A stretch of DNA of 59,849 bases, taken from the IMG/VR virus record IMGVR_UViG_3300017717_000005, positions 1-59,849 of that record. The stretch is one strand, 5' to 3'. A program made the position numbers and the translations under genes. Source of the DNA: a virus. Below the pieces are notes generated by a model. That model had not been told where the DNA came from. It saw nothing but the letters and a program-made list of their open reading frames with translations, and made no database searches. Positions 1-52,427 of this stretch are shown in pieces (position 1 is the first letter of the stretch; every line of letters begins with the position of its first letter).

Positions 1-123
1 CCGAAGATCGGTTCGTAATACACTTTACCCTTTTCGTCTCGGCAAGCCTTGAGACACCTTCCACGATTAACACCATCCCGCACATAAGACACGTGCACCC
101 AATCAGGATTATCCGAATCACCA
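1..123. repeat. terminal direct repeat, copy A (identical to 59727..59849)
   Basis: Compared base by base by eye: the first 123 nt equal the last 123 nt. This fits either a circular-assembly overlap or a short direct terminal repeat. Confidence 0.9.
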
Positions 124-13916: not shown

Positions 13917-14900
13917 ATGACTACCTCAATCTTTGAGAAGAGGCTGAGCTACAAGCCCTTTGACTATTCTGAAATTACTGACCCACTCATCAATGCGATG
14001 TGGGCAAGCCACTGGACTCACAACGAATTTAACTTCAAAGCTGATGTCCAAGATTACCACACCTCTCTCTCCGATCAAGAGAGAGCAGTAATCAAGCGAG
14101 CCATACTTCTCATTTCCCAAGTTGAAGTGGCAGTAAAATCATACTGGTCAAACATTGGAAAGCATCTGCCTAAGCCAGAGATTGCGGACATGGGGGCTGT
14201 ATTTGGTGGCGTTGAAGTGATCCACTCCCGCGCTTACTCTGAGATCTTGAGTAAGCTTGGACTGGAAGGAGAGTTCACTACCCTCCTAGAGAATGAGCCT
14301 GTACTGAACCGCGTTACTTACCTGAACAAATACGTTGATCGCGTATTTGAAGACGACAAGAAGCAGTTCCTCTACAGTCTCATCCTCTTCACGCTATTCA
14401 CCGAGAACGTCTCTCTGTTCAGCCAGTTCTACACTGTGCTTGGATTCAACCGCTTCAAGGCTGTGCTAAAGGACACCGCAAACGTGGTGCAGTACACCTC
14501 GAAGGAAGAGAACCTGCACGCTGAGGGTGGGATGGCACTGATCAACCAGATCCGTGCTGAGCATCCCGAGCTGTTTGACGCTGAGCTGGAGACACGCATC
14601 TGGGAAGAAGCCCAGGTTGCGCTGGACGCAGAGAGCAACTTAATTAAGTGGATCCTGCAAGGCTTTGAGAATGAGTTCCTTAGCGAGCCTATCTTAAACA
14701 ATTACCTCAAGAACAGAGTGAACGAGAGCATGCGCCGCATCGGGTTTGCATTCGAGTTTCCTGTCAACGAGGAGAGGTTGGAAGTCACCGCGTGGATGGA
14801 CGAGGAGGTATATGCCTCAGCCCTATCTGACTTCTTCCACAAGAAGCCTATCGACTACGCAAAAAGCACAAAGAGTTTCACAGCAGACGATTTATTTTAA
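13917..14900 (+). CDS. nrdB: ribonucleotide reductase class I small subunit (beta)
   Basis: Typical R2 features: a ferritin-like fold with iron ligands (VEVIHSRAYS, EENLHAEGG), a C-terminal tail, and a position immediately upstream of the large subunit. Confidence 0.85.
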   Translation: MTTSIFEKRLSYKPFDYSEITDPLINAMWASHWTHNEFNFKADVQDYHTSLSDQERAVIKRAILLISQVEVAVKSYWSNIGKHLPKPEIADMGAVFGGVEVIHSRAYSEILSKLGLEGEFTTLLENEPVLNRVTYLNKYVDRVFEDDKKQFLYSLILFTLFTENVSLFSQFYTVLGFNRFKAVLKDTANVVQYTSKEENLHAEGGMALINQIRAEHPELFDAELETRIWEEAQVALDAESNLIKWILQGFENEFLSEPILNNYLKNRVNESMRRIGFAFEFPVNEERLEVTAWMDEEVYASALSDFFHKKPIDYAKSTKSFTADDLF

Positions 14901-16546
14901 TGAAAGATTTTTACTGGGTCACAGAAGAGACCCGTCAATTTATGGAAAAGGGCTACCTAGACCCTGGACAAACCGTCGAAGAGAGGGCGCGAGAGATCGC
15001 AGACCACGCAGGTATGATCCTCGGGGACAAGCAGTTTGCAGACAAGTTCTACGAGAACCTGGCTCTTGGATGGTACAGCCTGAGCACTCCAGTGTGGGTG
15101 AACTTCGGCAAGAACAAAGGCTTACCTATCTCATGCTTCGGAACCACAGTGCAGGACGACACGTTCGACATCCTTCGTGGAGCCGCAGAGGTGGGAGCTA
15201 TGAGCAAGGTGGGTGGAGGTACGGCCACGTACTTCGGGAACCTGCGTCCTCGTGGCGCCAAGATCAGCAGCGGTGGTGAGACTAACGGGGCCGTCTCTAT
15301 GATGGAGCTGTACAACACCACAACCAACGTCATCTCGCAGGGAAAGGTGCGACGTGGTAGCTGGGCTGCGTACTTGGACGTCGAGCACCCAGACATCGAG
15401 GAGTTCCTCCGAATTCGTAGCGAGGGCCACCCGATCCAGGATGTGTCGTTTGCCGTGTGTATCGGCAACGACTGGATGCAGTCAATGATCGACGGCGACC
15501 AGGATAAGCGTGCTATCATGGCCAAGATCCACAAGAAGCGTAGCGAGACAGGCTACCCATACATCTTCTTCACGGACAACGTGAACGATCAGGCGCCTCA
15601 GTGGTACAAGGACAAGGGCATGAAGATCAAGCACTCCCAGTTGTGCGCTGAGATCATGGAGTACACCGACGAGGACAAGTCGTTTGTGTGCTGCCTGTCG
15701 TCCATGAATGCGTTGCACTACGAGGAGTGGCAGAACACTGATGGCGTTCAGCTTCTGGCTTCGTTCTTGGATGCGGTCTACTCTGAGTTCATCGAGAAGG
15801 CCAAGGACATTCCATTCATGGAGAAGGCTGTTCGCTTTGCTCGTGAGCATAGATCCATCGGCGTCGGCGTGCTTGGCTACCACTCATACTTGCAGAGTCA
15901 AGGCATCCCATTCGAAAGCATGCAGGCTCGGTTCATGAACAAGGCTATCTTCGGAGAGATCCAGCGGCAGTGTGAGGTGGCGAGCATGTATCTGGCAGGA
16001 GAGAAGGGAAGCCCAGCCGTTTTGGAGGGATATAACCGACGATTCAGCACGACCATGGCAGTGGCACCAACCACTTCGTCATCGTTCATCCTGGGGCAGG
16101 TGTCGCCGTCTATCGAGCCGTTGCAGTCTAACTACTTCACCAAGGACTTGGCTAAGGGTAAGTTCACCTACAAGAACCCCTACCTCAAGGATCTCTTGGC
16201 TGAGAAGGGTAAAGATGACGCAGCCACCTGGAAGGACATTATGATGAAGGGGGGATCAGTACAGCATCTGGAATTCCTGTCAAAGGAGGAGAGGGATGTG
16301 TTCAAGACGTTTGCTGAGATCTCACAGATGGAGGTGATCCAGCAGGCAGCTGACCGTCAGAAGTTTATTGATCAGGGACAGTCGCTGAATGTAATGATCA
16401 GCGACGAAGTCCCCTTAAAGGACGTCAACCAGCTTGTCATCAAGGCTTGGGAGTTGGGAATCAAGACGATGTACTACCAGCGCGGGGTCAACCAAGCACA
16501 GGCAGTGGGTAGGGACATCCTGAACTGCGCTGTGTGTGAAGGTTAA
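14900..16546 (+). CDS. nrdA: ribonucleotide reductase class I large subunit (alpha), short form with no obvious ATP-cone
   Basis: CFGTTVQDD...SKVGGGTATYFGNLRPRGAKIS...RRGSWAAYLDVEHPDIEEFL are hallmark RNR alpha motifs. The C-terminus carries a CAVC redox pair. Confidence 0.85.
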   Translation: MKDFYWVTEETRQFMEKGYLDPGQTVEERAREIADHAGMILGDKQFADKFYENLALGWYSLSTPVWVNFGKNKGLPISCFGTTVQDDTFDILRGAAEVGAMSKVGGGTATYFGNLRPRGAKISSGGETNGAVSMMELYNTTTNVISQGKVRRGSWAAYLDVEHPDIEEFLRIRSEGHPIQDVSFAVCIGNDWMQSMIDGDQDKRAIMAKIHKKRSETGYPYIFFTDNVNDQAPQWYKDKGMKIKHSQLCAEIMEYTDEDKSFVCCLSSMNALHYEEWQNTDGVQLLASFLDAVYSEFIEKAKDIPFMEKAVRFAREHRSIGVGVLGYHSYLQSQGIPFESMQARFMNKAIFGEIQRQCEVASMYLAGEKGSPAVLEGYNRRFSTTMAVAPTTSSSFILGQVSPSIEPLQSNYFTKDLAKGKFTYKNPYLKDLLAEKGKDDAATWKDIMMKGGSVQHLEFLSKEERDVFKTFAEISQMEVIQQAADRQKFIDQGQSLNVMISDEVPLKDVNQLVIKAWELGIKTMYYQRGVNQAQAVGRDILNCAVCEG

Positions 16547-16908
16547 AAGTCGCTCATCAAGATCTCGTCGATGGCTTCTTGGACATCGTCCTCGGTAGCC
16601 TCAAGAGTCATCATGATGTTGGCTTGAAATCTCTTGACTTCTTCACCTTCGTTGAAGACAACGACTGTAGGTACCACAACAATCTTGTGGTCGGACTGCA
16701 TGGCAGGGTTTGACGCAATGTCAACCCTTGCCGTGTTGCAGTCGCTAAGCTTTTCGATCCAGGGCACACTGTTTCCTGAGTTAAACGAGGCGTTAAACTC
16801 AATCACGCAGATACCCGAGCTGCAAACTTCTTCAGATTCCGCAACGCCCACAGAAGTGGCCGCCAACCAGAACGCAGAGAGCGCAAACAGGGTTAGTGTT
16901 GCTTTCAT
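16543..16908 (-). CDS. secreted thioredoxin-fold protein lacking the CxxC active site
   Basis: Signal peptide MKATLTLFALSAFWLAATSVGVA. VIEFNASFNSGNSVPW...VVVPTVVVFNEGEEVKRFQAN follows the thioredoxin beta-alpha-beta layout, but FNSGN sits where WCxxC would be. Confidence 0.5.
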   Translation of the reverse strand: MKATLTLFALSAFWLAATSVGVAESEEVCSSGICVIEFNASFNSGNSVPWIEKLSDCNTARVDIASNPAMQSDHKIVVVPTVVVFNEGEEVKRFQANIMMTLEATEDDVQEAIDEILMSDF

Positions 16909-16911
16909 TTT

Positions 16912-17196
16912 TCATTTCAGTTGATCTATTTTTTCTTCGATACGCTTGATGTCTTCTTTTATCTCGGTGATATCTTCTTGTGTGCTCATGATTGTCTGAC
17001 GGACTAGCTGGTCCTTCATGTCAAACTCCATGCGCGTGATATCTGGCGCTAATGGAGCGGGAAGTTCCTTGGCTTCCGCAATGTCTGCCTGCAGGGCAAA
17101 CCACATGGCCACGATTGTACCAATCCCCGCTGCCGCCATGCCTATTGTCTTTAGGTCTAGCGTGATCTTAGTGTCCTCCCCTATCTGTTGAGCCAT
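16912..17196 (-). CDS. single-pass membrane protein with a C-terminal coiled coil (94 aa)
   Basis: The TM segment IGMAAAGIGTIVAMWFAL is followed by the heptad-like ITEIKEDIKRIEEKIDQLK. Confidence 0.6.
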   Translation of the reverse strand: MAQQIGEDTKITLDLKTIGMAAAGIGTIVAMWFALQADIAEAKELPAPLAPDITRMEFDMKDQLVRQTIMSTQEDITEIKEDIKRIEEKIDQLK

Positions 17197-17197
17197 A

Positions 17198-18232
17198 TCA
17201 AATGATTACATAGTTGATTCCAACAGAGAAGTCGTGCCAAGATCTATCCCAGTACTTGTGAAATTTGCCTTCTGCAAACACACCAAAACTCTTGTTGAAT
17301 CTTTTTCCAAAGATAAGGCCTCCAGAGTAATCGATCCACTGACCGCTGTTCACGAACCTGTGATACGAATACTCACCATCTGTGTCTAGGTGATACGGAA
17401 TTACATTGCCCCAGGTGTGAACCCAGAAGTCTTTTGTGAAGTGATAGTAGTCAAACCCAACTACCAGTGAATGAACCCATTGGTTCGGAAGCTGTCCTCT
17501 TTTATCTGCTACATAGTCCTCAAGAAAGTCAGGGACAACGATCTCCTCCCACACCTCGTAACTATTTGCCACGAGCGTACCGTCTGGAGAAAAAAACTCT
17601 CCTGTGTTGACGTCGATGTCATAACCCTCCTGGATAGCAAGTGAAGTGAAGTGAAGCTGGTTGTTCTCAAGGAGCCACTCATTAAGAGGATCGTACCCGT
17701 ATGGCTCTGACAGCCTCTGCATGATTCCAGCGTTAAGCGACAGCTTACCAAGCTTAGCCCTGATTCTTTGGGAAGCCTCAAAGTATCTGACATCTGCAAA
17801 TCCATCCTGCAAGAACTCAACCTTGGTGATCCATTTGTCAGCCACGTATCTCAGGAAGTAGTCCTGGTCCAGGTAGTTAACGCCCTGCTGCCTTCTGTAG
17901 TCCCCCTCGAATAGAAACTCGAAGCCGCTCACCTTTCCGATGGTGGCGGCGTCTCCGTAGGACTTCTCTGTTCCGTTGTAAAACGTATTGGCTCTATTCT
18001 CGTACCCAAAGCGAGCGATCTTACGAACCCCTGCAGTAAGGGAATAGTCGAACGGAGTCTCAACAACATCTGTCTCCAGTCCGTTTGAAACAGAGAACAC
18101 CTCTCGATCCGACAGAGAGTTACCTCCGCTAAATGCTGTGTAGAAGGTTGCGAATTTGAACGCTTTCTTCAGTGCTTGACCTGAGACACTGAAGCTCAGC
18201 ATCATCAGGATTATGGCTGTAATATATCTCAT
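17198..18232 (-). CDS. signal-peptide protein, predicted outer-membrane beta-barrel-like (344 aa)
   Basis: Signal peptide MRYITAIILMMLSFSVSGQ. The rest is rich in Tyr/Gly/Phe with alternating hydrophobicity and no TM helices. Overlaps the upstream gene (18229-18232). Confidence 0.5.
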   Translation of the reverse strand: MRYITAIILMMLSFSVSGQALKKAFKFATFYTAFSGGNSLSDREVFSVSNGLETDVVETPFDYSLTAGVRKIARFGYENRANTFYNGTEKSYGDAATIGKVSGFEFLFEGDYRRQQGVNYLDQDYFLRYVADKWITKVEFLQDGFADVRYFEASQRIRAKLGKLSLNAGIMQRLSEPYGYDPLNEWLLENNQLHFTSLAIQEGYDIDVNTGEFFSPDGTLVANSYEVWEEIVVPDFLEDYVADKRGQLPNQWVHSLVVGFDYYHFTKDFWVHTWGNVIPYHLDTDGEYSYHRFVNSGQWIDYSGGLIFGKRFNKSFGVFAEGKFHKYWDRSWHDFSVGINYVII

Positions 18233-20370
18233 TGCTTGACGATTCTTTCTACGACAATCCTTCCCTTGTAATTTACGACAACCTCGTAGACGCCTTTAGG
18301 GAGCGATCTAAGATCGATCTGCCCCGATGTAGTGCCAGATACTACGATTTGACCAGAGGCGCTATAAACGTCTGCAAATGCTCCGACAGGCGCCTGGAAG
18401 TTAATGACATCTCTAGTTGGGTTGGGCCATAACTGAACGCGGATATAACCCATGTCCATCACGTTGGTCACGCCCTGACTACAGTATTCGTACATCTCAA
18501 TGCACACCGCATCCCACCCCACCTCGCAACAGTAAGGGTCAACCTCGATCACCCATGAGTAACAGTAATCATTGGCCCAGTATGGTTCCCCTGGGCCAGT
18601 GATGCAACCAGCATCATAAAGGCACTCTTCGTTAGCGGGAACGTTGGCGTACACGTTGTAATTAGCTGCGTCTAGGTCCATACACCCAGGCATCGGAGAG
18701 ATGCAGCTACCGTTTTCTGTATTGGCCATCGGGTCGTAGTTGATGGCGGTAGGGATGGTGCAGCCGTACACGAACTCAATGCAGCTGTTGTTCTCTGTAT
18801 TCGCCTCTTCGTTGTAGTTGAACATGGTTGGGTCGGTGCAGCCGAACACAACCTCTTCGCAATCTGCTTCATCGGTAGCTGCCTCGTTGTAGTTGAAGGC
18901 TGTCGGATCTTGACATCCCGCGACTTCCAGCTCGTCACAAATACCGTCGTCGTCCGAGTCGTTCAAGCACTCGTTGTCGCACCCGTAGTACTCGATCGGG
19001 AAGGTACAGTCACCATCTACGTTTGCCTCTGGGTTGTAGTCACAGGCGAAGCTGAGCGTACATCCCACGACACCCTCCACGCAGAAGTCTCCACACACGG
19101 GGATACCATCGTATTTGAATGGGAACTTCTTGATGGCGTCGGACCAAGGGTTGGTTCCGCCCTCCATGAACACCCCGCTAGGTCCGTCGAAGTAGAACCC
19201 GCACTGAGAGGCTGTGGTCTCTGCATTACCCTGCGTAAAGAACATGACCCTGACTGCTTCTCCAGAGTACAGAGGGATCTGAATCTCTTTCTCAAACTCA
19301 TCGGCAGGATACATGGTAAATGGTCCCCAGATCTCGTCTCCCTGCTGAACCCCAATCCAGCTACCGAACCAGCCATCACCTGCCCCGTCTGTAAGTGTCA
19401 GAGTAAAGTCACAGCTGGCCTCTGTCTCTAGCGTGTTGGCATCCTCATTGAAGTTAATTGCCTGAGGATCAGTGCATCCCAGAATCACTTCTGTCTGACA
19501 GCTGCCGTCGTCGATAACAGCACCAGGGTCATATTCTGTAAACCATGAGTCGGTGCAGCCCTGAGGGATAGGAGGAAAGCATGGGTCAATCACGATAGTA
19601 TCACTTGATACTACTTCGTACTGAGTGGTATCACCAACGTAGTACAGTGTCTCTCCACAAAGGCTAGATACAAGCAAGTTGCCGTCAACACCCCCGTAGC
19701 AGCTACCACACATACCATCACCGAAGCTGTCGTACACGTCCACCCTAAACTCCGAACCAACAGGTAGGCACACAGCCTCCACAATGGGAGCTCCTACAAT
19801 AGAATAGCCTGACCCCTCAGCAACCACTTCACCGTCTGGGATTGTGATTAGATCCCAGCTGATCTCAGCTGCATAAGTGTCAGGCGTAACTGTGACAAGG
19901 ATGTTGTTGTATCCTTCTTCGCATTGCACAGGCGGGAAGTCGCAGGGTGCAGGGGCGTTAGCCCATGGGTGATAGTTGATTGCACCCGCCTGCATACAAC
20001 CGAAGATTGGTGGCGGACAGGCAAGCACTTCGAAGGGAATGGTTTGCTCTGAGGTATTGAAGTCATACACCGTGGTGTCTAACTCACAGGTGTTGATCGA
20101 GAACCACCCCTCACCAAATCCACAGCAGATGCCATCGCCAAAAGAGTCGTAGATGGTAAAGGTGTACTCACCAAGAGGCAGTGGAAGAAACGCCTCGACA
20201 TACGGGAACTCACCCTGAAGAGGAGCAGACCCCGCAACTATCGCGTTGCTTGAGTCTCGAACTAGCCATGTGGTTTCTTGCCCATAGCCATCTCCTTGGA
20301 TAGAAATGGAGACCCAGCCTGTCTGCGCTGTTGCAAACAGAGGCAAAAACATAAGCAATAAACCTCTCAT
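18229..20370 (-). CDS. secreted Cys-rich modular protein with a T9SS C-terminal sorting domain
   Basis: Signal peptide MRGLLLMFLPLFATAQ. Contains three modules with DSFGDG / DGAGDGW motifs and eight GC(T/M/Q)D..A.NY(N/D)..AN....C repeats. The C-terminal 72 aa, YIRVQLWPNPTRDVINFQ...LPKGVYEVVVNYKGRIVVERIVKQ (18232..18447), fit the T9SS type A CTD pattern. Confidence 0.75.
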   Translation of the reverse strand: MRGLLLMFLPLFATAQTGWVSISIQGDGYGQETTWLVRDSSNAIVAGSAPLQGEFPYVEAFLPLPLGEYTFTIYDSFGDGICCGFGEGWFSINTCELDTTVYDFNTSEQTIPFEVLACPPPIFGCMQAGAINYHPWANAPAPCDFPPVQCEEGYNNILVTVTPDTYAAEISWDLITIPDGEVVAEGSGYSIVGAPIVEAVCLPVGSEFRVDVYDSFGDGMCGSCYGGVDGNLLVSSLCGETLYYVGDTTQYEVVSSDTIVIDPCFPPIPQGCTDSWFTEYDPGAVIDDGSCQTEVILGCTDPQAINFNEDANTLETEASCDFTLTLTDGAGDGWFGSWIGVQQGDEIWGPFTMYPADEFEKEIQIPLYSGEAVRVMFFTQGNAETTASQCGFYFDGPSGVFMEGGTNPWSDAIKKFPFKYDGIPVCGDFCVEGVVGCTLSFACDYNPEANVDGDCTFPIEYYGCDNECLNDSDDDGICDELEVAGCQDPTAFNYNEAATDEADCEEVVFGCTDPTMFNYNEEANTENNSCIEFVYGCTIPTAINYDPMANTENGSCISPMPGCMDLDAANYNVYANVPANEECLYDAGCITGPGEPYWANDYCYSWVIEVDPYCCEVGWDAVCIEMYEYCSQGVTNVMDMGYIRVQLWPNPTRDVINFQAPVGAFADVYSASGQIVVSGTTSGQIDLRSLPKGVYEVVVNYKGRIVVERIVKQ

Positions 20371-20801
20371 TTCTTGGCTTTCTCGATGGTTCTTCCTGCG
20401 AAGTATGCACCAAACGCAGTCAACATCAAAATCTGTAACAAATCCACATAAGAGTCCTTTACATTAAAGGCTACATTATCCATGCTGTCTATAAACATAG
20501 TCACCATAAACATGCTCATCAGGGCGATAAGAGTGACAGGTCTGATCAGCTTTGCAAGCTTCACATCGCTACCCATATCTGCCTTCCATCTCTCGGTGAC
20601 GTTGTTTTGAAACTGGATCTCTGCGTCGACGGCAGCCACCCCTTCGTCTGTGTTGACGTCGGGGTCTTTGTCGATAAGATTCTTTACGATTCCAAGTCCA
20701 CCGCTATCGGGCAACAAGTCCCCAACAACATCAAGCACATTAGGTGCTTTTGACTTGAGCCACTTACCGAGGCCCGTGTCTTTAATCTTCTGATCTTTCA
20801 T
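20367..20801 (-). CDS. holin-like membrane protein (soluble N-terminal region plus two C-terminal TM helices)
   Basis: TM helices are IRPVTLIALMSMFMVTMFI and LLQILMLTAFGAYFAG, with a charged C-terminus (RTIEKAKK). Function is inferred from topology only. Confidence 0.4.
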   Translation of the reverse strand: MKDQKIKDTGLGKWLKSKAPNVLDVVGDLLPDSGGLGIVKNLIDKDPDVNTDEGVAAVDAEIQFQNNVTERWKADMGSDVKLAKLIRPVTLIALMSMFMVTMFIDSMDNVAFNVKDSYVDLLQILMLTAFGAYFAGRTIEKAKK

Positions 20802-23800
20802 TTTCGTATTGTTCTTGCATGATTTGGAAGAGCATCAGGGTGTGATTGCGGAATCTGTTGCCCTGGTACTCGATTGCTCCGTTGTAGTGGTCGTTAACCT
20901 TGTTCATAGCCATGACGCGCTCTTCGTCGCCCATCTTGGCGTATTCCTCTGTTGCAATCAAAGCTTCGAGCTCTTGATAGCGCTCCTTACCTGAAGCCTC
21001 CATGAGCTTGTTGAGCTGCGTGGTGTTCAAGTAGAACGCCTGATCTTGGAACTCTTCGTCCTGCATCCATGGGTAATTGATGCCTGCTTTCTGGAGCTTG
21101 CTCTTGTATCTGGAAGTAATGTTCGGTACATTGATCTTTCTCTTTGCGGCATAACCAGGAGTTCCGCAGGCCTTAGTCAAGTCTTCTGTTTGCTCGTAAA
21201 GCCTGTAGATCTCGTTAGACACAGCATCCGCCTCACCTTGTCTAGACTTGGTGATGTCGAAGATCTGATACGCAATACCAGTGGTGCCTCTGGGCGTTTG
21301 CTTGATAGGATTACCTTTCCAGTCCACACGAACTGGCAGCTCTGACAAACCAAACGTTCTGTCCTTGATGGTGTATGCCATCTGAGTCAGCATTCTTTCT
21401 GTCGTAGACATATCTTTGGTGACTCTCGTGTCTGGCAAGAACTCTCTGTTGCCCCTGTACACAGCAGAAAGCGTGTTTGGAAGCACAGTTGCAGACACAG
21501 CCTGGAACGTAGTTCTGGTCCACTTCTCAAAGCTCTTCTCCAGGTCTTTCACATCGGCAGATCCCACTACATCCAGGAGGGTAGACATTCCCTGCATGAA
21601 GCTTTGATCCATCATATATGTAATTCCTGAGAACGCACCCACACCAAACACATCCTGAAGGGCGTGCAAAGCGAACTCTTCGTCGTCTCTCTGCCTGAGT
21701 TCCTCTTTGTTCACAGACTTAGCTGTTGCGCCAATCACAGCTCCCAAGATACCGAGCTTATTGTACCCCACGAACACGTCGTCAGGCTGGTGAGATGAAT
21801 CTTCACCTCTCACCCAACGCTGAACACCTGTTACGTTGATGCTACTTGGCGGGAACTGGTCGTAAGAAATGTTTCTCTTCTCGTCATCGCTCCAGTCGAG
21901 GGCTTCTGAGATCAAGCCCTCTCTGATCAGAGCGACTGCAGTCTGAGAAACCATAGTCCCAACAACGATCTTACCAAAGTCTTGTGATGCTCCACGAGCA
22001 TCTCCCTCGGATAGTTTCTTTACGATTGATGGTCCAGCTACGTATGGAGACACGTAAGTCAATGTCTCAATAAGCATGTTTGCTGGAGTTCTAACATAAG
22101 GCATATTAGACCTAATCACGAACTTAGCAAACGCATTTGAATCAAGACCTGGAACCCAAGACATGCCCTTAGAAATGACTCTTTCGAAGAACTTCACTGA
22201 GTCTTCCGCCACATCTGACATGGCTGTTCTCTCTTGGAACGTAAGCTTTCTTCCTTCTCTCTCAGCTGCTTCTCTTGCCTTCTTTGTAGGGTGCTTGATG
22301 AAGTTAGTCAAAGCGTCGCCTTCCAATCCCATGTTCTTACCAGCCTGATACAGCTCGATACCCTCAACATATCTTCTGAATGGAGTATCACCCAGGGTCA
22401 AGAATCTGAACATGGTTTCAGCTGGGATTCCAAATGTCCCTTGAACAGCGAGCTTGACTCTTTGTCTGTTTGAAACTGCTCCATCTGGCCCGAGTGGCAG
22501 GTCTCCCTTACCCATGGCTGACATCAATGATCGGAACGGAGCAAAACCTCTATGCACTCTCCACTCCGTCCCGTCAGCCTCTTGACCTGTAGCGATAGTG
22601 TCCAATGCCTCGACAAAGCCTTGCCCGAACTTACGCAATCCGTACATGTATGCGTTGATTGCATAGTTTCTCTTCATCGGGGACTCAATCCCAAATGCAT
22701 TGATCAGTCTCTCCACTGGCAAGGCGACGGCATCTACAGCCACCTTGCCTAGTGCGTTTACCATGTTGGCTCCTACGTTTGTGATCTGAGACATAGGGGT
22801 AAGCAAGTTACCCTGGATAAGCATGGTCCCAATCTCACCCCATCCTCTTTCGATCACGCCGTTAGAGAATGTGTCCAGCTCTCTTTCAGCAAGCTTCACT
22901 CTTCTAGTGGCTGCTTCGAGCTCAATCTCCACATCCTGACCAGCGATCGCCTGCTTCATGAGCTCTTCGTGCTCAGCTTGTCTTTGGAAAAGATCAGCTG
23001 CAATCCTCTCAAGCCTTTGTTTCTGTGCAGGAGAGAGGCTGTTACCTCGCTTTTGTACCGCGCTCTCAATGACACCGACAATGCCAGCTGGTGTACCAGA
23101 CTTGAGTTCTCTGAGGTGCCTCAATAGGCGACCAGCTGTGGTTCCTGCAGCGGCAGCCTGCTCGACCAAAAACGGAACAGCATCCATGTCTCCTCTACCC
23201 ACGGCTCTATTGATGAGCTCGGATGTAGCAAGAACTCCGAGATCATCATTCCTGCTCTGTAAATTCCCAAGACCCTGCCCACTCATCATTGCGATGAGGT
23301 CAGCGTCACTCTTGTCACTGAGTTCTCCCTTGAGTTCTTTTAGGCTCTGTGGTGTGAAGTAGTTCTTAGGGTTGCTAAGGATCTCGCCTCGCACTCCTGG
23401 GTACTTCCGAGCCATTCGGCCAGCAGTCTTACGAGTCTTCAGCAGACTAGACGCCCTGCTCTGCGCTTCCTCCATGTTGGCTGCAACCTCGCTTTCGTTA
23501 AGTGCGACCTTGGATTCAACAGGCATGTTGTCGTAAGCCAACTCAACGTCCAATGCGTCTGCAAACTGAACTCCATTTTTCTCGGCCATTGCCTGGAATC
23601 TCTTGACTGCCTTAGTGTACTTAGGTCCACGCTTAACTCTCTTTGCTCTTTCAGATGCAGTCTCAGATCTACCTTGCTTCAGGGTAGGATCGTTGAAACC
23701 GTAGTATTCAATATCACCTCTCAGGTAAACTGTGTTACCCACGATGGTCGCTTCTTCGGCAGACTTGATGGGTCTGCCTGCAGCGTCCACAAATACGTTG

Positions 23801-26800
23801 TGCTTGAATGGGTTGAAGAATGCCTTCACCCCGTCGAAGTTCATGAGATCAATGTTGTCGGTCATGAACTCACCATCCACGCTGGCCATAGGGAACTTGT
23901 TCTCTTGGAACGTAACGATCTTCTTGCGTGCGTTCTGATTGACATTCAGGTTTGGATTCTTGACCATGACAGCACCAGCGTACTTCAAGGCCTCGCCTGT
24001 AGCGGTCTTGTCGTGCATAGTCTGAACTGGGACTCCTGTGTTCTTCATGACGTTGAGGTTGAGTCTAACCCCAACCTTTCTGCCAGACTCCACCTGAACT
24101 CCCTTAGCAATAATCCTTCTTGACGTAGCATCTGTGTTTAAGGCTCCTTGCACAACTCTGTTGCTGATCGACTCTCCATTCCTCAGGACGGCAAGAGCCT
24201 CCTTTGGACCTCTCGTTCTGTACAGATTAGATTGCGTCGCGTCCTTCTTGCCTGCCTCTGTAGGGAACAGCAGCAGCTGAGATGCTCTTGCATCAGACTT
24301 GCTCTTCATTGGAGGCAAGTTCCTAAGAGCCCCAGCGTATGTTTTGTAGTCGAGAGATTCTTTGAGATTACCGTCTGCATCGAATATGGCGTTGTCTTTG
24401 TGACCGACGAAGATTTGTCTGTCAGCAAAAACCAACTGTCCAACTGTTGATGGAGTGACTCTTTGGTCTGGGAATGTGTCAGCCAAAACACTAGCCATCT
24501 GAGTAACAAACTCCCCCGACTTTCTCTTCTTGGAGTTGCTTTCTGGTAGGCTTGGATTTTCGATTTGCTCCAAGATGCGATTAAGAGCAGAAATATCTGA
24601 CTCTGACTTGCCCTCTACCTCCAAGAAGTCAATGTGTTGTTTAGCAGCCCTATAGATGTCTGCCATTATGCCGACCGATCTGCTTACATCAGCCCTATTT
24701 TTAGCATCTCTGCCCTGCATGCCGCCAAAGAGAGAAGAGTATTGAATATCATAGGAGCTATTGTCCACATCTTTACCCAACTGCTCCAAGTCAACGCTGC
24801 TCATATCAACTCCCATAGACTCAAGCTTCCTTGTGAGCCTTAGCCAGTTTCTAAGAACAAGACCTTCTGCCCCTTCATACGTCCCCAGTACAAGCTGTGT
24901 TGTGTTGTACACATGAGTGTCTACGGTGACGATGTCTGAGAGCTTACCTGACTTTTTGTTCGAAAGGTTTGGCATAAGCTCTTGGTTCATATTGAGCAAC
25001 CAAGCACCGACCTTGTTACCAAACAAAGCTTGAGACATAGTTCTTTCAATCACATTCGCCCCCGAGTATGGCGACAACAAGAACCCCGTGAGTCTCTTCC
25101 AATCAACCTCTCCGTCAGGCCTCACAAAAGGACCGTTCTCAGAAATCTCTTTTGCGTAGATCTTCTTAAATGTTGGGGTGATACCCTTGAGATCAAGATC
25201 TCCGTTGATGATTGAGTTGAGCTTTCTAATCGCCTTGGCATACGATCTAACACCAACCCCAGATGCTCCTTTGATCTTCTTAGCACCAACCTTCTTGGCG
25301 AGGTTCTCTGTAATGCCACTAGCTCCGTCAAACTTGAGCGCTTCTGACTCAACCATGAGCTGCAGAACAGCCTCCATGTTTGGCTTAGACTGGTTCTTGG
25401 CTGACACGAGGGCCGCAAAGAAGTTCATCTTAGCCAAGTTGTTGAACCTGCTGCCAGTAAGTGCGCCCTCATCAAGGGCTTGATCCACCTTGGCCTCAGC
25501 CTCGGCTTGATAGTTTACAAAGTATTCTAGCGGATTTTCATCGCCAAACTTTGCTGCTCTAAGTTCTGGACTAGCCATGTACTGACCCATAAGCCCCTGG
25601 AACACCTCTTGCATTGCTGCTGGGTTATCCTCAAACTTAACCATAAGGAACTGCCTCATGGCATCATAAGCGGCTGCACGTGAGTTTACCGATTTACCTT
25701 TAGGTATTTCAACACCCATGTTACGCAAAGCCTTCTCAAGCATCTTTACGTGTTGAGGGCTAAAGGCATCTCTTTCGAGGTTGATCATGAACTCAAACAG
25801 AGAGTCAGAAGCTCTGGTCTCCGAGTCGCCTTTGAAGTTAAACTCCTTACCCTTAGCCTTAGCCTCTCTTTCAATGATTCCCTCTACGTGAGTATACAGA
25901 CCGTCAAGTCGTTCTTGGAACTGCGGTGCTTTGCCAAACGCTTGTGGGTTTGTCTCGCCCCTGCTTTCGGCCTGACTGATCATTCTCAAGATCGGAGCTG
26001 TCTTTCTTCTCACAGCAGCGGCCACGGACTTAGAAATAAGCCCTTGCGCCTCTGCTGAAGACACCATTCTATTGAGGTCTTTACTCTTCTGCTTGATCGG
26101 GTTTGAATCGAGTCTGTTGCTCTTTCTAGCGCCATACCCTTTGATTCGGTCAACATCAACGACCTTACCCTCAGAGTCAGTGAAGCCAGTAAGCTCTTGC
26201 TTCTTGCCCATGTCGGTAGTCTTTTTCCACCAGTTGATGAAGTGCCACTGATCTCTAAACGACTTGGTTTGTTTGGCAGACCCAATATCTTTTCTTTCTC
26301 CAAACCCGAAGTACTTGTAGATAGGCTTGTTGTAGGTGACGGTCACGGTGCCATCTTCATTCTTAGCAAGTCTCGCAGGTGACACTCTCTCAGAAGCTCT
26401 TGTCTCACCTGCAAAAGCCTGAGAGTCAACGGTCAAGTCCGAACCAAACACGATACCCTTCTCTTGAGCCATTGCAAACTTGGCAATGATAGCCCTCATG
26501 GAGTCCGAGTTGGTGATAGCCAGATCCTTCCCTGCTGCTCCATGGATTGCAATCATCATTTTGTTGATGGCAATTCTCACTCTCTCGATAATACCAAGAT
26601 CTACATCCCCAGCGGCCAAGGCTGACAGCAACTCGATTGTAGTTTCTTCGAAGACCTCAGCCTTAGGCTTGCTCCCGTAAGCTCTTTCCTTTTCTTCCAT
26701 CCTCTCAATGAGGTCTGGATTTCTTCTAGCCACGATGGCGGCAATGTTGTCTCTGAAGCTCTGAGCAACATCAGGATTCTTAGAGTACATATTGTACAGT

Positions 26801-29800
26801 GTCTTCCCGATCACTGCGTGCATAACCTCCTCCTGCACTGTTTCTGCGAAACTCTTTGTTCTCTTTAAGCCTCCTTCTCCTCGGTCAAACTCAAGTCTTT
26901 GGTTTTCTCTAATCTGAGACGGATTGATGTGGATTGCTCCTCCAGAGTACAGCCCACCCCATGTCGTTCCGTGCTCACCCCCGTCCAGGTTGCCAGCTGT
27001 TTCGGCGTCTGGATATACCACAAGATCCAGACCTAAGAAATCAGCAAAGGCTTGGAATCTGTTAAGGATCTTAGCTTCTTTTGCTGTGAGACCACCCATG
27101 CCCTCAAGCCAAGTCCCTTTATCGTTTTTTCTGTTTGCTTGAACAGATCTGTCTGGGTATTTCGACTTAGGCGCAGCCTCTGATTCCTTTGACTCAGATC
27201 TTGTCTCCTCTACCAGCTGATCAATCTCACTTAGGTCGTCAGTGGCTGAAGTTTCTTTCTCTTCAGCCTTAGACTCTGTCAGTGCTCTAATATCTGCTAC
27301 TCTGTCGATCTCTGGCTTCAGCCCCTCTACAACCTTACCGTCGCCGCCAGTGGCAATCTCCTCCATTGTATCAAGAGCAAATACAGAAACCTGGTTGTAT
27401 TGCTCGCCGAGTGAGACTGCTGCCTTCTTATCGACCACGGCTGACACGTCGATGAATGTCTGATCTGACTGGGCATCGTAGTACGTTCCGATTGATAGGA
27501 CGTCTTCGTTGCCTTCAAAAATATCTTTGTTGGCTTCTTTGAACTCGTTAAGAATCTGAACCATCTCTTGCTGGCTCATCTTGCCTTTCACGATCTTGCT
27601 TCTTTCATTGAAGATGCTTACCGAAGCCTTCGGTTGGCCCACTTGGTTTTGACCATCAAGCGTGTATGTGCTGCCCAGTACGCCTCCAGTAGCCTCATCT
27701 GCGAAGTGGTTCTCCGATTGAGATTCAGCACTCCACGATGTTGCTGGCTCTTCAAGTACAGCAGCTTCTGACTCTATGCCGAGCACAGAGGACAAACCGT
27801 TTGCAGCCTCCAAGACACCAGCCTCTGATTGGTCTGACGGCGTTGAGTCGTACTCAGATCTAGCGCCGTTGTAATTAGACAGAGCCTCCACAAGGGACTG
27901 ACTCTCCTGCTCAACAGCCTGGATCTCTGATTCAATGTCAGCTACGTCGCTCTCACTTCTAGTGCCTTCAGCAACCTCCTCTACAGCGCTTTGAAGTCTC
28001 TCATTGAGTGACAATCTTTCTTGCTCAAGAGAAGCTATCTGATCCTGAACCTGCTCTTTGACTTCCGTGGTAGCCTCTACATTATTCAGAGACACCTCGT
28101 TAGGGTTGAAGCTGTCCTCTAGGGTCTTTCTCTGGGTGGCCTTTCTTTCTAGCTCTGCCTCAAGCTCTGCCCTTGACTCTGCTGTCAGGTTTTTGCTCTT
28201 TAGCTCAAGCTGGATGTTGTGAATGTCTGTGTCGATCGATTGCAAAGCACGTGCCTTTCTTGGCTCAGCTTGTGCCATCTTCTTGTACCTACCCAAGAGA
28301 CCGCTTCTTCTAGATTTAGCCTCGTTTCTTTGACTTTTAGCAAGAGCTGACAACCTCTCTTTCTCACCACGGTCCACAGACCTCCTTGCTTTACCCTCGT
28401 TTGCTGCGGCCTTGTTTTCCAGGTCCGCAGCTACGGATCCCTCGGTAGAGTTGCTTGAAGATGCAAGGCGCCTCGCCGCTTGAGATGAGTTCTGATTCTC
28501 AATATCGATTTCAGAGACTCCTCTTGGATGTAACTTCTTAGCGTGGTCAATGCCCTTGCGAGTGATAGATGCAGCAGATTCGGTGTCTCCGTTTTTCACC
28601 GCCCTGGTCAGGTTTGATAAAGAATAATCTGTCGCAGACTGAAGGGCCATGTCATCAAGCTCAAGGCCAGCCTTAGATGCCTCCTCCCTGATCTTCTGCT
28701 GAGCCTGGTCTACTGATGGGCGTTGAGCCTTCTTCTGACTGGCAACACTACCCTCAAATTCCCCGTCATTCTTTACGTCAAGTCTGTTCAGGTCGTGACC
28801 CGCGTCCATAAATGCCCTGGCTTCTTGGTAACTCACTTTCTGGCCGTCAATTCTGTACTCAGGAACAAACATCATATTTATCCCAGTAGTGATACCAGAA
28901 ACAGGAACCTCCATAAACCCCTCAAGAACAGACTCAAATGCGTCAACCTCTCCTGTAGACACCAACTGAGCTGCAGTCTCTCCAACCATAGCCATCGGAG
29001 TCTCCACTGCCATACCGACAGCAGCTCTTCCTGTCTTTGATGAAAGTGCTTTTGACGTGCTCTTCGCTGCAAAACCCATGGCCTTACCAGACCCAACCGC
29101 AGCCAAGGAGTCAAAGACCGCAATGGTGACTCCTCTTGCGATTGCCTGAGTCTTCATTCGGCTTACAATCTCTTCATCATTGAAGATCTTTTCTAGATTC
29201 TCCCCTGTCATGGACAGGTTATTGTGATCTATTTCTTCCCTTAGGATTTCCATGATGGTTGAGTGGGCGTCAACCATGCCTGAAACACCGCCCATAAGAC
29301 CCTTGAAGAATCCAGGAACCGCGCCAGCGATTGCACCAACAGCAGTACCAGGGCCAGGTGCAACAGCAGTACCAGCGGTACCTCCAATGGTGGCGTATGC
29401 ACCCGCTGTCACCACACCAGAAACTCCTGCTCCAGCCAAACCGCTAAGCTCAGTTCCGCTACCAATCATTCTTCCGAACGAATTAAACAGCGTTTCCATG
29501 CCTCCAGACTTGTTGTTGGCGAAAACAGCAACCTTATCCCAGAAGCCGCCACCCGCTTTGTCCACCTCTTCCATCTGCTTGCCGAACTCGGTCGCCGCCT
29601 CTGACCTCCCTATGCTGTCGATTTCTACGATAGATTTAGCCAGTTCATCGAACTCTGCATCGCCATCCAGAGCCCCGATGAGCTCATCACCAAGAGACCC
29701 TTCTTCTCTACCCTGCTTAAATACTCTAGCTTGGTTGACCATCCAGTCAGTGAGATCTTCGGCTCCTTGAGCGATTTTACCGTCTCCGTAGTCTATTTTG

Positions 29801-52411: not shown

Positions 52412-52427
52412 GTTGCAATTTAATTAG

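What the first reader, a model, noticed from the sequence alone, without database searches (positions are those of the whole stretch)
16543..20801. Five consecutive envelope-targeted genes form the distal end of the late operon: a candidate undescribed phage envelope module
In transcription order the five genes are:
- a 144-aa protein with two C-terminal TM helices (holin-like);
- the 713-aa signal-peptide plus T9SS-CTD protein;
- a 344-aa signal-peptide beta-barrel-like protein;
- a 94-aa N-terminal-TM coiled-coil protein;
- a 121-aa signal-peptide thioredoxin-fold protein.
All are tightly packed, with overlaps at 20782-20801, 20367-20370 and 18229-18232 and gaps of only 1 to 3 nt elsewhere. 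They directly follow the giant ejection-like gene. Every product is predicted to leave the cytoplasm, which is unusual for a run of five phage late genes. The module ends exactly where the convergent early unit ends. Possible roles, all inferred, are a Bacteroidota-specific outer-membrane disruption or lysis system, a surface-remodelling or exclusion system that uses the host T9SS, or an acquired host island (moron).
Basis: inference. Interest (0 to 1): 0.8.

Follow-up and report, generated by a model that had tools for sequence, protein, structure and literature searches.

The report
Phage envelope cassette beside lysis genes
A marine Bacteroidota phage carries a holin followed by four conserved genes that put one protein in each layer of the host cell envelope, one of them exported by the host's type IX secretion system; this four-gene set is seen only in uncultured phages, always complete and usually next to lysis genes, and what it does is still unknown.

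Summary
In detail: five tightly packed minus-strand genes (16543-20801) follow the giant gene and end stop-to-stop against ribonucleotide reductase.

The genes:
- g1 is a holin-family protein.
- g2 has a Sec signal, 39 cysteines, beta-sandwich domains, a repeat stalk and a type A T9SS sorting domain.
- g3 is a signal-peptide protein modelled as a 14-strand outer-membrane barrel, with no known family.
- g4 is an inner-membrane-anchored coiled coil.
- g5 is a secreted thioredoxin fold without the CxxC site.

The run is really 1 + 4. In 60 of 60 testable IMG/VR loci, g2-g5 occur together on one strand, and 63 of 96 g2/g3 junctions are ATGA overlaps. The cassette sits on contigs from about 35 to 300 kb. 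The holin moves from one side of the block to the other. Two unrelated endolysin types sit beside it, and in one clade the block lies between amidase and holin.

g3-g5 are more conserved (61-64%) than terminase (49%) or portal (38%). I found no homologues in cultured phages or in 185,579 species genomes apart from three MAG contigs. A host-island origin is therefore unlikely.

Function is inferred. My best guess (0.4) is a late T9SS-linked surface-display assembly. The main rival (0.3) is a spanin-like outer-membrane lysis device.

The parts
20367..20801 (-). g1: holin-family protein, 144 aa. It has a soluble N-terminal domain of about 80 aa and two C-terminal hydrophobic segments. Its start overlaps the end of the giant gene by 20 nt.
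   Evidence: ORF. phrog_3427 'holin' at E 6.5e-22. tblastn hits genes annotated as holin in Vibrio and Manatee Spring phages. Hydropathy peaks at 82-104 and 117-137. In relatives it lies either upstream of g2 or downstream of g5.
18229..20370 (-). g2: T9SS-exported, cysteine-rich, adhesin-like protein, 713 aa. Layout: signal peptide (about 1-15, cleavage before Q16), three beta-sandwich domains carrying D-x-[FY]-G-D-G motifs, about six 'GCTDPxAxNYNxxAN' two-cysteine repeats, a Cys-rich knot, then the CTD.
   Evidence: ORF. 39 Cys, with a range of 30-68 in orthologues. AF2 model at pLDDT 71.3 with tandem beta-sandwiches. Foldseek finds only adhesin-, C2- and FN3-like folds plus T9SS CTDs, and no enzyme. 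Repeat number varies, giving 713 to about 1,240 aa in homologues.
18232..18432 (-). Type A T9SS C-terminal sorting domain of g2 (residues about 647-713).
   Evidence: TIGR04183 at 38.1 bits against a cutoff of 23. PF18962 at 28.9 bits against 27. Structural match to CTDs bound in the T9SS translocon: 8glk_D TM 0.84 and 8glj_D TM 0.80. The YPNPT...G.Y...K(I/V)(I/V)K(Q/K/R) motifs are kept in all orthologues printed.
17198..18232 (-). g3: predicted outer-membrane beta-barrel, 344 aa, no cysteine. It has a signal peptide with cleavage before the invariant Q19, 14 predicted strands, and a 75-aa insert (176-250) containing a long helix, placed after strand 9. ATGA-coupled to g2.
   Evidence: No hit in Pfam, NCBIfam, PHROGs or PDB sequences. 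3,291 homologues in 90% clusters and 373 representatives at 50% clustering, all unnamed. The C-terminus ends in a hydrophobic or aromatic residue across the family.
16912..17196 (-). g4: bitopic inner-membrane protein, 94 aa. N-terminal about 16 aa, TM 17-35, a short Pro-rich linker (ELPxPPxPE), then a helix of about 40 aa ending in a coiled-coil heptad pattern.
   Evidence: Length is fixed at 93-96 aa in 69 distinct orthologues. Only weak PHROG hits, to families of unknown function.
16543..16908 (-). g5: secreted thioredoxin-fold protein without the CxxC active site, 121 aa. The C-terminal Phe is invariant. Its stop codon overlaps the stop of the convergent RNR large subunit.
   Evidence: Alignment A2 and the PDB profile search (E 1.6e-7 to thioredoxins, with WCGPC aligned to a gap or to 'FNASFN..N'). 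Pfam Thioredoxin at 20.6 bits, below the cutoff of 23.5. Sequence.
1..467 (-). Peptidase_M15_3 endolysin, the lysis partner of g1, encoded at the far end of the late block. The ORF runs over the window's left end. Because the ends repeat, its last residues are read at about 59712-59849.
   Evidence: tblastn gives 42.6% identity to the endolysin that sits between g5 and the holin in L058-type loci. PF08291 at E 6.5e-19. Junction reading.
20782..30090 (-). Giant 3,102-aa late gene directly upstream. There is no gap, so g1-g5 are most simply read as the tail of the same transcription unit.
   Evidence: No promoter-like or terminator-like excess between 15500 and 31500. Pfam Phage_L5_gp82 at residues 2001-2122.
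14900..16546 (+). Ribonucleotide reductase large subunit, the end of the convergent early/replication unit that bounds the module.
   Evidence: PF02867 at E 3.8e-98.

Best explanation
The run is a holin (g1) joined to a phage-specific four-gene cassette (g2-g5). The cassette places one protein in each layer of a Bacteroidota envelope: g4 in the inner membrane, g5 in the periplasm, g3 in the outer membrane and g2 on the cell surface.

Most likely mechanism (inferred):
1. Late in infection the phage uses the host's Sec, BAM and type IX secretion machines to build a surface-display assembly.
2. g2, a 39-cysteine adhesin-like fibre with distal beta-sandwich 'heads' on a variable repeat stalk, is exported by Sec.
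3. g2 folds oxidatively in the periplasm, helped by g5, a redox-inactive thioredoxin-fold protein acting as a dedicated chaperone.
4. g2 crosses the outer membrane through the T9SS, directed by its type A CTD.
5. g2 is then held at the surface by g3, its translationally coupled barrel partner, whose large insert is predicted to face outwards.
6. g4 ties or organises the assembly from the inner membrane.

Because the cassette sits at the end of the late operon and travels with holin and endolysin genes, its effect is probably exerted at or just after lysis. It would alter the surface of the dying cell and its debris, through adhesion or through masking of surface receptors or glycans. It is less likely to act early in infection.

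Shown: gene order, conservation, domain identities, and restriction to phage-like contigs. Inferred: localisations, every protein-protein contact, expression timing and the biological pay-off.
For: Cassette integrity:
- g2, g4 and g5 are present in 60 of 60 testable g3-anchored loci, all on one strand.
- ATGA overlap of g2/g3 in 63 of 96 loci. g3/g4 are within 10 nt in 87 of 98 and g4/g5 in 75 of 100.

One variable part plus conserved parts, as in display and secretion systems:
- g2 has a median of 36% identity, and its repeat number varies (713 to about 1,240 aa).
- g3, g4 and g5 are at 64, 63 and 61%, against terminase 49%, portal 38% and a putative capsid protein 39%.
- Such conservation fits contact with conserved host machinery.

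g2 is a bona fide T9SS type A cargo by HMM and by structure. It has no enzyme-like domain. It carries 39 Cys while g1, g3 and g4 carry none, which gives the thioredoxin-fold g5 a natural client.

The 75-aa insert of g3 follows an odd-numbered strand, so it is extracellular if the model's strand count is right. This region is the length-variable one in distant relatives.

In large-phage contigs the cassette is extended by further secreted proteins. These include OMP-like proteins and proteins whose C-terminal tails look like CTDs by eye (Pfam found no CTD in them), one of which carries a true WCGPC thioredoxin motif. No g1-type holin lies within 10 kb.

Cargo genes followed by their outer-membrane carrier gene are the rule for one class of T9SS substrates (PMC12618676, PMC9143113).

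A Bacteroidota host is supported by the CTD, by the Q-rule signal peptides (PMC5837995), by portal similarity to Flavobacterium and Cellulophaga phages, and by a BT4734-like primase domain.
Against: - Type A CTD cargo is normally carried by host PorV and needs no private carrier (PMC12618676).
- g3 shows no sequence relation to PorV, PorP/SprF or any Pfam or NCBIfam barrel family. It also lacks the periplasmic Cys-X-Cys tail of SprF (PMC12635249).
- The role given to g4 is weak.
- The g3 model is only moderate (pLDDT 65.5, N-terminal third below 50), so the side on which the insert lies is uncertain.
- Close linkage to lysis genes points towards a lysis function: 41 of 55 loci have a holin and/or endolysin within 1.5 kb, and in one clade the block lies between amidase and holin.
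- Late timing is inferred only from gene position. The promoter scans were uninformative.
- No experiment exists for any of the four families.
Confidence: 0.4

Rival explanations
1. Spanin-like third step of lysis adapted to Bacteroidota. g4 is an inner-membrane-anchored coiled coil, like an i-spanin. g5 is a periplasmic adaptor. g3 is an outer-membrane anchor that is a BAM-inserted barrel rather than a lipoprotein. Together they form an envelope-spanning complex that breaks or fuses the outer membrane once the holin and endolysin have removed the cell wall. g2 is an accessory surface component.
For: - The cassette keeps company with lysis genes through at least four or five different arrangements: holin-g2345; g2345-M15 endolysin-holin; Amidase_2-g2345-holin; g4..g5-g2-g3..holin; g3..g4-g5-g2-endolysin.
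- 41 of 55 loci have a holin and/or endolysin within 1.5 kb, and some further loci have a small 2-TM holin-like ORF that the probes missed.
- Two non-homologous endolysin families flank the cassette.
- No ORF with a lipobox plus the right size and position for an o-spanin or u-spanin was seen in the window.
- g4 has the i-spanin architecture.
- A published survey finds only unimolecular spanins in Bacteroidetes phages, so the outer-membrane step is poorly covered there (PMC12596118).
Against: - The periplasmic part of g4 is only about 58 aa, short for bridging a periplasm.
- The only large non-barrel part of g3 is predicted to be outside the cell, not in the periplasm.
- An adhesin-like T9SS cargo, translationally coupled to g3 in most loci, has no obvious place in membrane fusion.
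- Spanins and holins usually evolve fast (general knowledge), whereas g3-g5 are more conserved than terminase.
- The closest deposited relative, MW202828.1, lacks the cassette entirely. tblastn of each of g2-g5 against about 50,700 deposited phage genomes, which include the related Flavobacterium and Cellulophaga phages, found no homologue, so the cassette is not indispensable in this lineage.
- In contigs of 55 kb, 116 kb and 300 kb that carry the long g2 form, no g1-type holin or M15/Amidase_2 endolysin is adjacent.
Confidence: 0.3
2. Superinfection exclusion. The cassette changes or blocks the surface, or the T9SS/gliding machinery that many Flavobacterium phages depend on, so that a second phage cannot adsorb or inject.
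For: All products are envelope-targeted. g2 is variable, as expected for a protein in an arms race. Phage-encoded periplasmic and membrane exclusion proteins are well known, for example T4 Sp and Imm (general knowledge).
Against: The cassette sits at the distal end of the late structural operon with no upstream gap, whereas exclusion genes of lytic phages act early (general knowledge). Exclusion systems are usually lineage-specific, but g3-g5 are shared at 50-64% identity by phages from about 35 to 300 kb.
Confidence: 0.1
3. An island or moron acquired from the host, or an auxiliary metabolic or nutrient-uptake set (porin plus binding protein).
For: Phage-encoded porin-like barrels exist in many uncultured phages. 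Weak Foldseek resemblance of g2 to Bacteroides surface glycan-binding proteins.
Against: A pattern scan built on g3, over one genome for each of 185,579 species, found only three MAG contigs, and those carry the whole phage-type cassette. No homologue carries a cellular annotation. There is no composition break across the region.
Confidence: 0.04
4. Virion or ejection proteins that merely follow the giant internal protein gene.
For: Position directly after the giant gene.
Against: g2, g3 and g5 have cleavable Sec-type signal peptides, and g2 has a T9SS sorting domain. This is incompatible with cytoplasmic assembly of a tailed virion. The block also occurs away from giant genes in other backbones.
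Confidence: 0.02

Closest known systems
T9SS cargo plus genetically linked outer-membrane carrier (SprB/SprF and other type B CTD / PorP-SprF-like pairs; PorV for type A cargo) in Flavobacterium johnsoniae and Porphyromonas gingivalis
   Same: A secreted protein with an N-terminal Sec signal and a C-terminal T9SS sorting domain is followed immediately by a gene for an outer-membrane barrel of about 340 aa. The cargo is a long adhesin-like repeat protein.
   Different: The cassette is encoded by a phage. The CTD is type A, not type B. g3 has no detectable sequence relation to PorP/SprF or PorV and lacks the Cys-X-Cys periplasmic tail. Two further conserved partners (g4, g5) have no counterpart.
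Two-component spanins (lambda Rz/Rz1 type) in holin-endolysin-spanin lysis cassettes
   Same: Location beside or between holin and endolysin genes. One partner (g4) is a type II inner-membrane protein with a periplasmic coiled coil. One partner is in the outer membrane. The genes are tightly coupled.
   Different: The outer-membrane partner is a 14-strand barrel, not a small lipoprotein with a lipobox cysteine. g4 is much shorter than known i-spanins. A periplasmic thioredoxin-fold protein and a T9SS cargo are added. Conservation is unusually high. There is no sequence similarity to any spanin family in PHROGs or Pfam.
Phage-encoded outer-membrane proteins and lipoproteins carried near late or lysis genes (lambda Lom and Bor; porin-like genes of uncultured phages)
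   Same: A phage gene for an outer-membrane beta-barrel in the late region. Foldseek against viral models finds generic phage 'porin/OMP' proteins.
   Different: Those are single genes, usually with cellular homologues and often expressed from prophages. Here the unit is a four-gene, phage-only cassette in apparently lytic phages.
Redox-inactive thioredoxin-fold chaperone domains (for example the b/b' domains of protein disulfide isomerase, CnoX/YbbN-type proteins)
   Same: g5 keeps the thioredoxin fold, including the cis-Pro loop (VVVPT), but lacks CxxC. It is co-encoded with a protein holding 39 cysteines.
   Different: g5 is a single small secreted domain with no detectable specific relation to those families. 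The chaperone role is an inference.

Membership tests
Phage holin (phrog_3427 family) | Significant match to the family profile | tested here: met
   g1 at E 6.5e-22, 79 bits, residues 55-144. tblastn hits genes annotated as holin.
Phage holin (phrog_3427 family) | Small protein with one or more transmembrane segments | tested here: met
   Hydropathy peaks at 82-104 (strong) and 117-137 (weaker). No dedicated TM predictor was available.
Phage holin (phrog_3427 family) | Encoded next to an endolysin | tested here: inconclusive
   Not adjacent in the window, where the M15 endolysin is at 1-467 at the other end of the late block. Adjacent in 26 of 55 relatives, which have both holin and endolysin within 1.5 kb of the cassette.
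Phage holin (phrog_3427 family) | Forms lethal membrane holes at a programmed time | not testable with these tools
   Needs expression and lysis assays.
T9SS type A cargo | C-terminal sorting domain matching TIGR04183 / PF18962 above the curated cutoff | tested here: met
   38.1 bits against 23, and 28.9 bits against 27. Orthologues match as well.
T9SS type A cargo | CTD folds as the 7-strand Ig-like sandwich seen in solved substrates | tested here: met
   Foldseek: 8glk_D TM 0.84 with rmsd 1.7 A, 8glj_D TM 0.80, mirolase CTD TM 0.65.
T9SS type A cargo | N-terminal Sec signal peptide | tested here: met
   MRGLLLMFLPLFATA|QTG. 60 of 63 orthologues have [AGSTC]Q after the hydrophobic core. This is a heuristic only.
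T9SS type A cargo | Secretion depends on host T9SS (SprA/PorV), with CTD removal by PorU | not testable with these tools
   The host is unknown and no experiment is available.
PorP/SprF-like T9SS carrier | Match to PF11751 / TIGR03519 | tested here: not met
   No hit for g3 at E up to 1 in Pfam or NCBIfam, and none for 26 diverse family members at E up to 10.
PorP/SprF-like T9SS carrier | Encoded next to its cargo gene | tested here: met
   g3 follows g2, with an ATGA overlap in 63 of 96 loci.
PorP/SprF-like T9SS carrier | Cognate cargo has a type B CTD | tested here: not met
   The g2 CTD is type A.
PorP/SprF-like T9SS carrier | Periplasmic C-tail with a conserved Cys-X-Cys (SprF) | tested here: not met
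   g3 has no cysteine and ends with the last barrel strand. The feature is described in PMC12635249.
Two-component spanin | i-spanin: N-terminal TM anchor plus periplasmic coiled-coil domain | tested here: inconclusive
   g4 has this architecture, but its periplasmic part is only about 58 aa, and it matches no spanin family.
Two-component spanin | o-spanin: small outer-membrane lipoprotein with a lipobox Cys | tested here: not met
   There is no lipobox in g3, g4 or g5. g3 is a 344-aa barrel without cysteine. No suitable lipobox ORF is seen in the window.
Two-component spanin | Located in the lysis cassette | tested here: met
   Next to the holin in the window. Between or beside endolysin and holin in relatives.
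Outer-membrane beta-barrel protein | Signal peptide, an even number of antiparallel strands closing a barrel, and a terminal hydrophobic or aromatic residue | tested here: met
   AF2 gives 14 strands. The top 50 PDB Foldseek hits are outer-membrane barrels apart from cellulose synthase subunit BcsC at rank 50 (E from 4e-7, TM only 0.25-0.38). The family ends in ...NY(V/T/Q)(I/F)(I/L/F). The model is of moderate quality only.
Thioredoxin (redox-active) | Thioredoxin fold | tested here: met
   Profile A2 against the PDB: 189 thioredoxin-type chains, best E 1.6e-7.
Thioredoxin (redox-active) | CxxC active site | tested here: not met
   The WCGPC position aligns to a gap or to 'FNASFN..N' in all 31 orthologues. 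Pfam score is 20.6, below the cutoff of 23.5.
Host-derived island / moron | Homologues in cellular genomes outside phage contexts | tested here: not met
   Only three MAG contigs among 185,579 species genomes, each carrying the whole cassette.

The most novel reading that the evidence does not exclude
g3-g4-g5, with g2, are a Bacteroidota-specific answer to the third step of Gram-negative phage lysis. In this reading they form an envelope-spanning disruptor whose outer-membrane foot is a BAM-inserted beta-barrel instead of a lipoprotein. Its T9SS cargo may exploit the very large T9SS translocon or the surface layer to open the outer membrane. This would be a new class of lysis protein alongside spanins and disruptins.
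Probability: 0.25. Interest if true: 0.9.

Novelty: new variant of a known kind. Interest (0 to 1): 0.7.

Why it matters
How phages of Bacteroidota get through the outer membrane and surface layers of their hosts is essentially unstudied. [quoted passage not shown]

This cassette is abundant in marine metagenomes. g3 alone has 3,291 homologues in 90% clusters, including Tara samples. It is shared by phage-like contigs from about 35 to 300 kb and is more conserved than their terminases. Even so, three of its four families have no annotation anywhere.

Whichever reading is right, it gives a concrete, testable handle on two questions: how phages use or subvert the T9SS, and how they finish lysis in a major bacterial phylum. 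It also supplies a sequence marker for linking uncultured marine phages to Bacteroidota hosts, namely the CTD plus Q-rule signal peptides.

Tried and rejected
- DNA similarity of 16400-21400 to about 50,700 deposited phage genomes: none.
- tblastn of g3, g4 and the giant C-terminus against the same set: none. g5 gave only weak thioredoxin hits, and g2 gave one 58-aa repeat hit.
- g3 against Pfam, PHROGs, NCBIfam, PDB sequences (two profiles) and Pfam on 26 diverse members: nothing.
- Sigma-70 promoter and terminator scans were at shuffle level. A Bacteroidetes-type TTTG...TAnnTTTG search gave 3 matches, none near the module. Operon structure therefore rests on gene packing only.
- A Ser-His-Asn catalytic triad (OMPLA-like lipase) in g3 was considered. 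I dropped it because the conserved S255 and H272 are out of register on neighbouring strands in the model (my reading).
- TonB-like or nutrient-uptake readings of g4/g3 were considered and set aside for lack of any profile support.
- Cluster look-ups gave no organism names.
- A 46-aa lipobox-like ORF at 59707-59847 was examined. It lies inside the terminal repeat and endolysin region and is probably spurious.

Full report
**1. The observation**

- g1, 20367-20801, 144 aa
- g2, 18229-20370, 713 aa
- g3, 17198-18232, 344 aa
- g4, 16912-17196, 94 aa
- g5, 16543-16908, 121 aa

g1 overlaps the end of the 3,102-aa giant gene by 20 nt. g1/g2 and g2/g3 are ATGA overlaps, and the other gaps are 1 and 3 nt. 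The g5 stop overlaps the stop of the convergent ribonucleotide reductase large subunit. Base composition shows no break across the region. No promoter-like or terminator-like excess separates the genes. The simplest reading is that they form the tail of the late transcription unit.

**2. What each product is**

- **g1** matches PHROG 3427 'holin' at E 6.5e-22. It also matches genes annotated as holin in Vibrio and spring-water phages. It has two C-terminal hydrophobic segments.
- **g2** has a signal peptide and a C-terminal type A T9SS sorting domain: TIGR04183 at 38.1 bits against a cutoff of 23, and PF18962 at 28.9 against 27.
  - In an AF2 model (pLDDT 71.3) that domain superposes on substrate CTDs solved inside the T9SS translocon (8glk_D, TM 0.84, 1.7 A).
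  - The rest of the protein is tandem beta-sandwiches followed by short two-cysteine repeats, with no enzyme-like match.
  - It holds 39 cysteines.
- **g3** has no hit in Pfam, PHROGs, NCBIfam or PDB sequences.
  - AF2 gives a 14-strand barrel with a 75-residue insert, at moderate confidence only (pLDDT 65.5).
  - Foldseek returns only outer-membrane barrels from the PDB, and generic phage 'porin/OMP' models from BFVD.
- **g4** is a 94-aa bitopic protein with TM 17-35, a short proline-rich linker and a C-terminal heptad pattern. Its PHROG hits are weak and go to unannotated families.
- **g5** has a signal peptide and a thioredoxin fold (profile hits on solved thioredoxins, E 1.6e-7). The WCGPC site is missing in all 31 aligned orthologues.

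Signal peptides of g2 and g3, and of many g5 orthologues, end just before a glutamine. That is the Bacteroidetes 'Q-rule' (PMC5837995). No dedicated signal-peptide or TM predictor was available.

**3. Is it a module?**

A scan of IMG/VR with g3 found 138 related loci, and a scan with g2 found 40. I mapped all five proteins back onto 116 fetched loci.
- In the 60 g3-anchored loci with at least 3 kb on both sides, g2, g4 and g5 are present in 60 of 60. No hit lies on the opposite strand.
- The g1-type holin is present in 46 of 60.
- Orders seen: g2-g3-g4-g5-g1 (33 loci), g2-g3-g4-g5 (13), g1-g2-g3-g4-g5 (10, the window's type), g4-g5-g2-g3-g1 (3) and g3-g4-g5-g2 (1).
- g2/g3 overlap by ATGA in 63 of 96 loci. 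g3/g4 are within 10 nt in 87 of 98 and g4/g5 in 75 of 100.

The real unit is therefore a four-gene cassette (g2-g5), with a holin that changes sides.

The cassette also occurs on contigs of about 120 kb (L033, L118). It occurs on a 301,804-bp contig with a phage-like gene content (L120). It also occurs with a long, 1,089-1,189-aa form of g2 on contigs of 55 and 116 kb (L124, L125). On the three contigs carrying the long g2 form (L120, L124, L125) a g4-like paralogue is inserted. On L120 further secreted, OMP-like and CTD-like proteins follow.

**4. Link to lysis genes**

- In L058-type loci the order is g2-g3-g4-(YfiM-like)-g5-Peptidase_M15 endolysin-holin. The M15 endolysin is found in the fetched flanks of 43 loci, usually directly after g5.
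- In close relatives of the window's phage (L003, L006-L009 and others), an Amidase_2 endolysin lies directly upstream of g2 and the holin directly downstream of g5. There the cassette sits inside the lysis cassette.
- Of 55 loci with the full cassette and 2 kb of flank, 41 have a holin and/or one of these two endolysins within 1.5 kb. Some of the remainder have a small 2-TM holin-like ORF that my probes missed.
- In the window itself the endolysin is a Peptidase_M15_3 gene at 1-467.
- The window ends share an exact 123-bp repeat, so the genome is a complete 59,726-bp circle or terminally redundant molecule. The endolysin crosses the junction and lies at the start of the long leftward block.
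- The closest deposited phage by portal (MW202828.1, 33%) has the same endolysin position. It ends its late unit with the giant gene and has no cassette.

**5. Distribution and conservation**

- None of g2-g5 has a homologue in about 50,700 deposited phage genomes.
- g3 has 3,291 homologues in 90% clusters and 373 representatives at 50% clustering. All are unnamed, and many come from Tara and other marine samples.
- A scan of one genome for each of 185,579 species found only three MAG contigs, in alphaproteobacterial bins. At least two of the three carry the rest of the cassette as well. These are most simply mis-binned phage contigs.
- Across the loci, median identity to the window is g3 64%, g4 63% and g5 61%. 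The comparison values are terminase 49%, portal 38%, a putative capsid protein 39%, holin 47% and g2 36%.
- The cassette is thus phage-only, widespread, and more conserved than hallmark genes, apart from its one variable member.

**6. Host**

Several features point to Bacteroidota, probably marine Flavobacteriia-like hosts:
- the type A CTD
- the Q-rule signal peptides
- portal similarity to Flavobacterium, Cellulophaga and Tenacibaculum phages
- a BT4734-like primase domain
- crAss ring-protein domains near the cassette in L122

This is inferred, not shown.

**7. Mechanism**

What is shown is four conserved proteins whose predicted destinations are the inner membrane, periplasm, outer membrane and cell surface. 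They are co-encoded with translational coupling and are usually beside lysis genes. Everything beyond that is inference. I weigh two readings.

*(a) T9SS-linked surface display (0.4).*
- The variable, cysteine-rich, adhesin-like g2 is the effector.
- g5 is a redox-inactive thioredoxin-fold helper for its folding.
- g3 is its outer-membrane partner.
- g4 is an inner-membrane organiser.

This reading explains several observations:
- the split between one variable and three conserved members
- the g2/g3 coupling
- the cysteine-rich g2 co-encoded with the thioredoxin-fold g5
- the probably extracellular, length-variable insert of g3
- the expansion with more cargo-like genes in large phages
- the high conservation expected of proteins that dock on conserved host machines

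Cargo genes followed by carrier-barrel genes are known for T9SS type B substrates (PMC12618676, PMC9143113). However, g3 fails every membership test for PorP/SprF: no HMM hit, a type A cargo rather than type B, and no Cys-X-Cys tail (PMC12635249).

*(b) A spanin-like outer-membrane lysis device (0.3).*
- It explains the persistent linkage to holins and to two unrelated endolysin families.
- It explains the i-spanin-like build of g4.
- It explains the absence of any lipoprotein spanin candidate in the window.
- A survey reports that Bacteroidetes phages have only unimolecular spanins (PMC12596118).
- Against it: g4 is short, g2 has no role, conservation is atypical for lysis proteins, and relatives do without the cassette.

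Position at the end of the late operon argues against an early exclusion function (0.1). Host-island and virion readings are effectively excluded.

**8. Novelty and verdict**

The module idea is strongly supported by synteny, with the correction that it is a holin plus a four-gene cassette.

I found no description of a phage-encoded T9SS substrate or of this cassette in the literature searches I ran. Three of the four families are unannotated.

I file it as a new variant of known kinds, namely a lysis-cassette accessory or a cargo-carrier pair, because its function is not established. If the lysis reading is right it would be a new class of lysis system.

Interest is 0.7.

Noticed in passing
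window 1-123 and 59727-59849: The window ends carry an exact 123-bp direct repeat. The sequence is therefore a complete circular or terminally redundant phage genome of 59,726 bp, assembled with an overlap.
   Followed up: yes
window 1-467 (minus), continuing at about 59712-59849: The Peptidase_M15_3 endolysin gene crosses the genome junction. It lies at the start of the long leftward block, about 43 kb of transcription away from the holin. The lysis genes are split in this phage, although they are adjacent in many relatives.
   Followed up: yes
window 16543-16546: The stop codons of g5 (minus) and the RNR large subunit (plus) overlap in a TTAA palindrome. This leaves no intergenic space for a terminator between the convergent units.
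   Followed up: partly
L058:4388-4750 and at least 13 other loci (for example L024, L031, L048, L076): An extra secreted protein of 100-120 aa, related to the YfiM lipoprotein family (NF008028, E 4.5e-8), is inserted between g4 and g5 in many relatives. It is absent from the window.
   Followed up: partly
L120:14956-15297, L124:14978-15277, L125:14656-15012, L032:11309-11656: A g4-like paralogue (TM plus a helical tail, 99-118 aa) sits between g4 and g5 in the large-phage versions of the cassette.
   Followed up: partly
L120:15862-19290 (contig of 301,804 bp): Downstream of the cassette, a jumbo-phage-like contig encodes more envelope proteins. These are two OMP-like proteins (201 and 185 aa), a 432-aa secreted protein with a true WCGPC thioredoxin motif plus a D-x-Y-G-D-G domain and a CTD-like tail, and a 168-aa protein with a CTD-like tail.
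   Followed up: partly
L019:8439-10004, L020, L104, L110: A second secreted protein of 411-521 aa is inserted between g2 and g3 in some lineages.
   Followed up: no
L122:13147-13815 and 18608-19570: Pfam CrAss_Ring_2 and CrAss_Ring_1 domains lie next to the cassette on an 84.7-kb contig. This suggests that some carriers are crAss-like phages.
   Followed up: no
L117, L118, L119 (GTDB genome contigs): The only 'cellular genome' hits are contigs in MAGs binned as Parvibaculum, Rickettsiales and Maricaulis. L117 and L118 carry the rest of the phage-type cassette as well, while L119 is cut off within g3. They are probably mis-binned phage contigs, one of them 120 kb long.
   Followed up: partly
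window 52427-52501 (minus): A tRNA-Arg(TCT) gene lies in the late region.
   Followed up: no
window 52879-53478 (minus); L121:12782-13060; MW202828.1 40671-42561: There is a Cpn10 (GroES)-like domain at the C-terminus of a 199-aa protein in the window. Relatives carry Cpn10, and MW202828.1 carries GroEL too, so co-chaperonin genes recur in this phage group.
   Followed up: no
window 20782-30090 (minus): The giant 3,102-aa protein carries a Phage_L5_gp82 domain (residues 2001-2122, E 3.2e-9). It has homologues in only 7 of the fetched loci at about 50% identity, far less conserved than the cassette downstream of it.
   Followed up: no
L027:9979-10200, L030:12555-12776, L032:12030-12251: A 74-aa two-TM protein has a C-terminus resembling that of g1 (…GLEKFAGKK). 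It looks like a short holin of the same family and is missed by tblastn with g1, so holin linkage is underestimated.
   Followed up: partly
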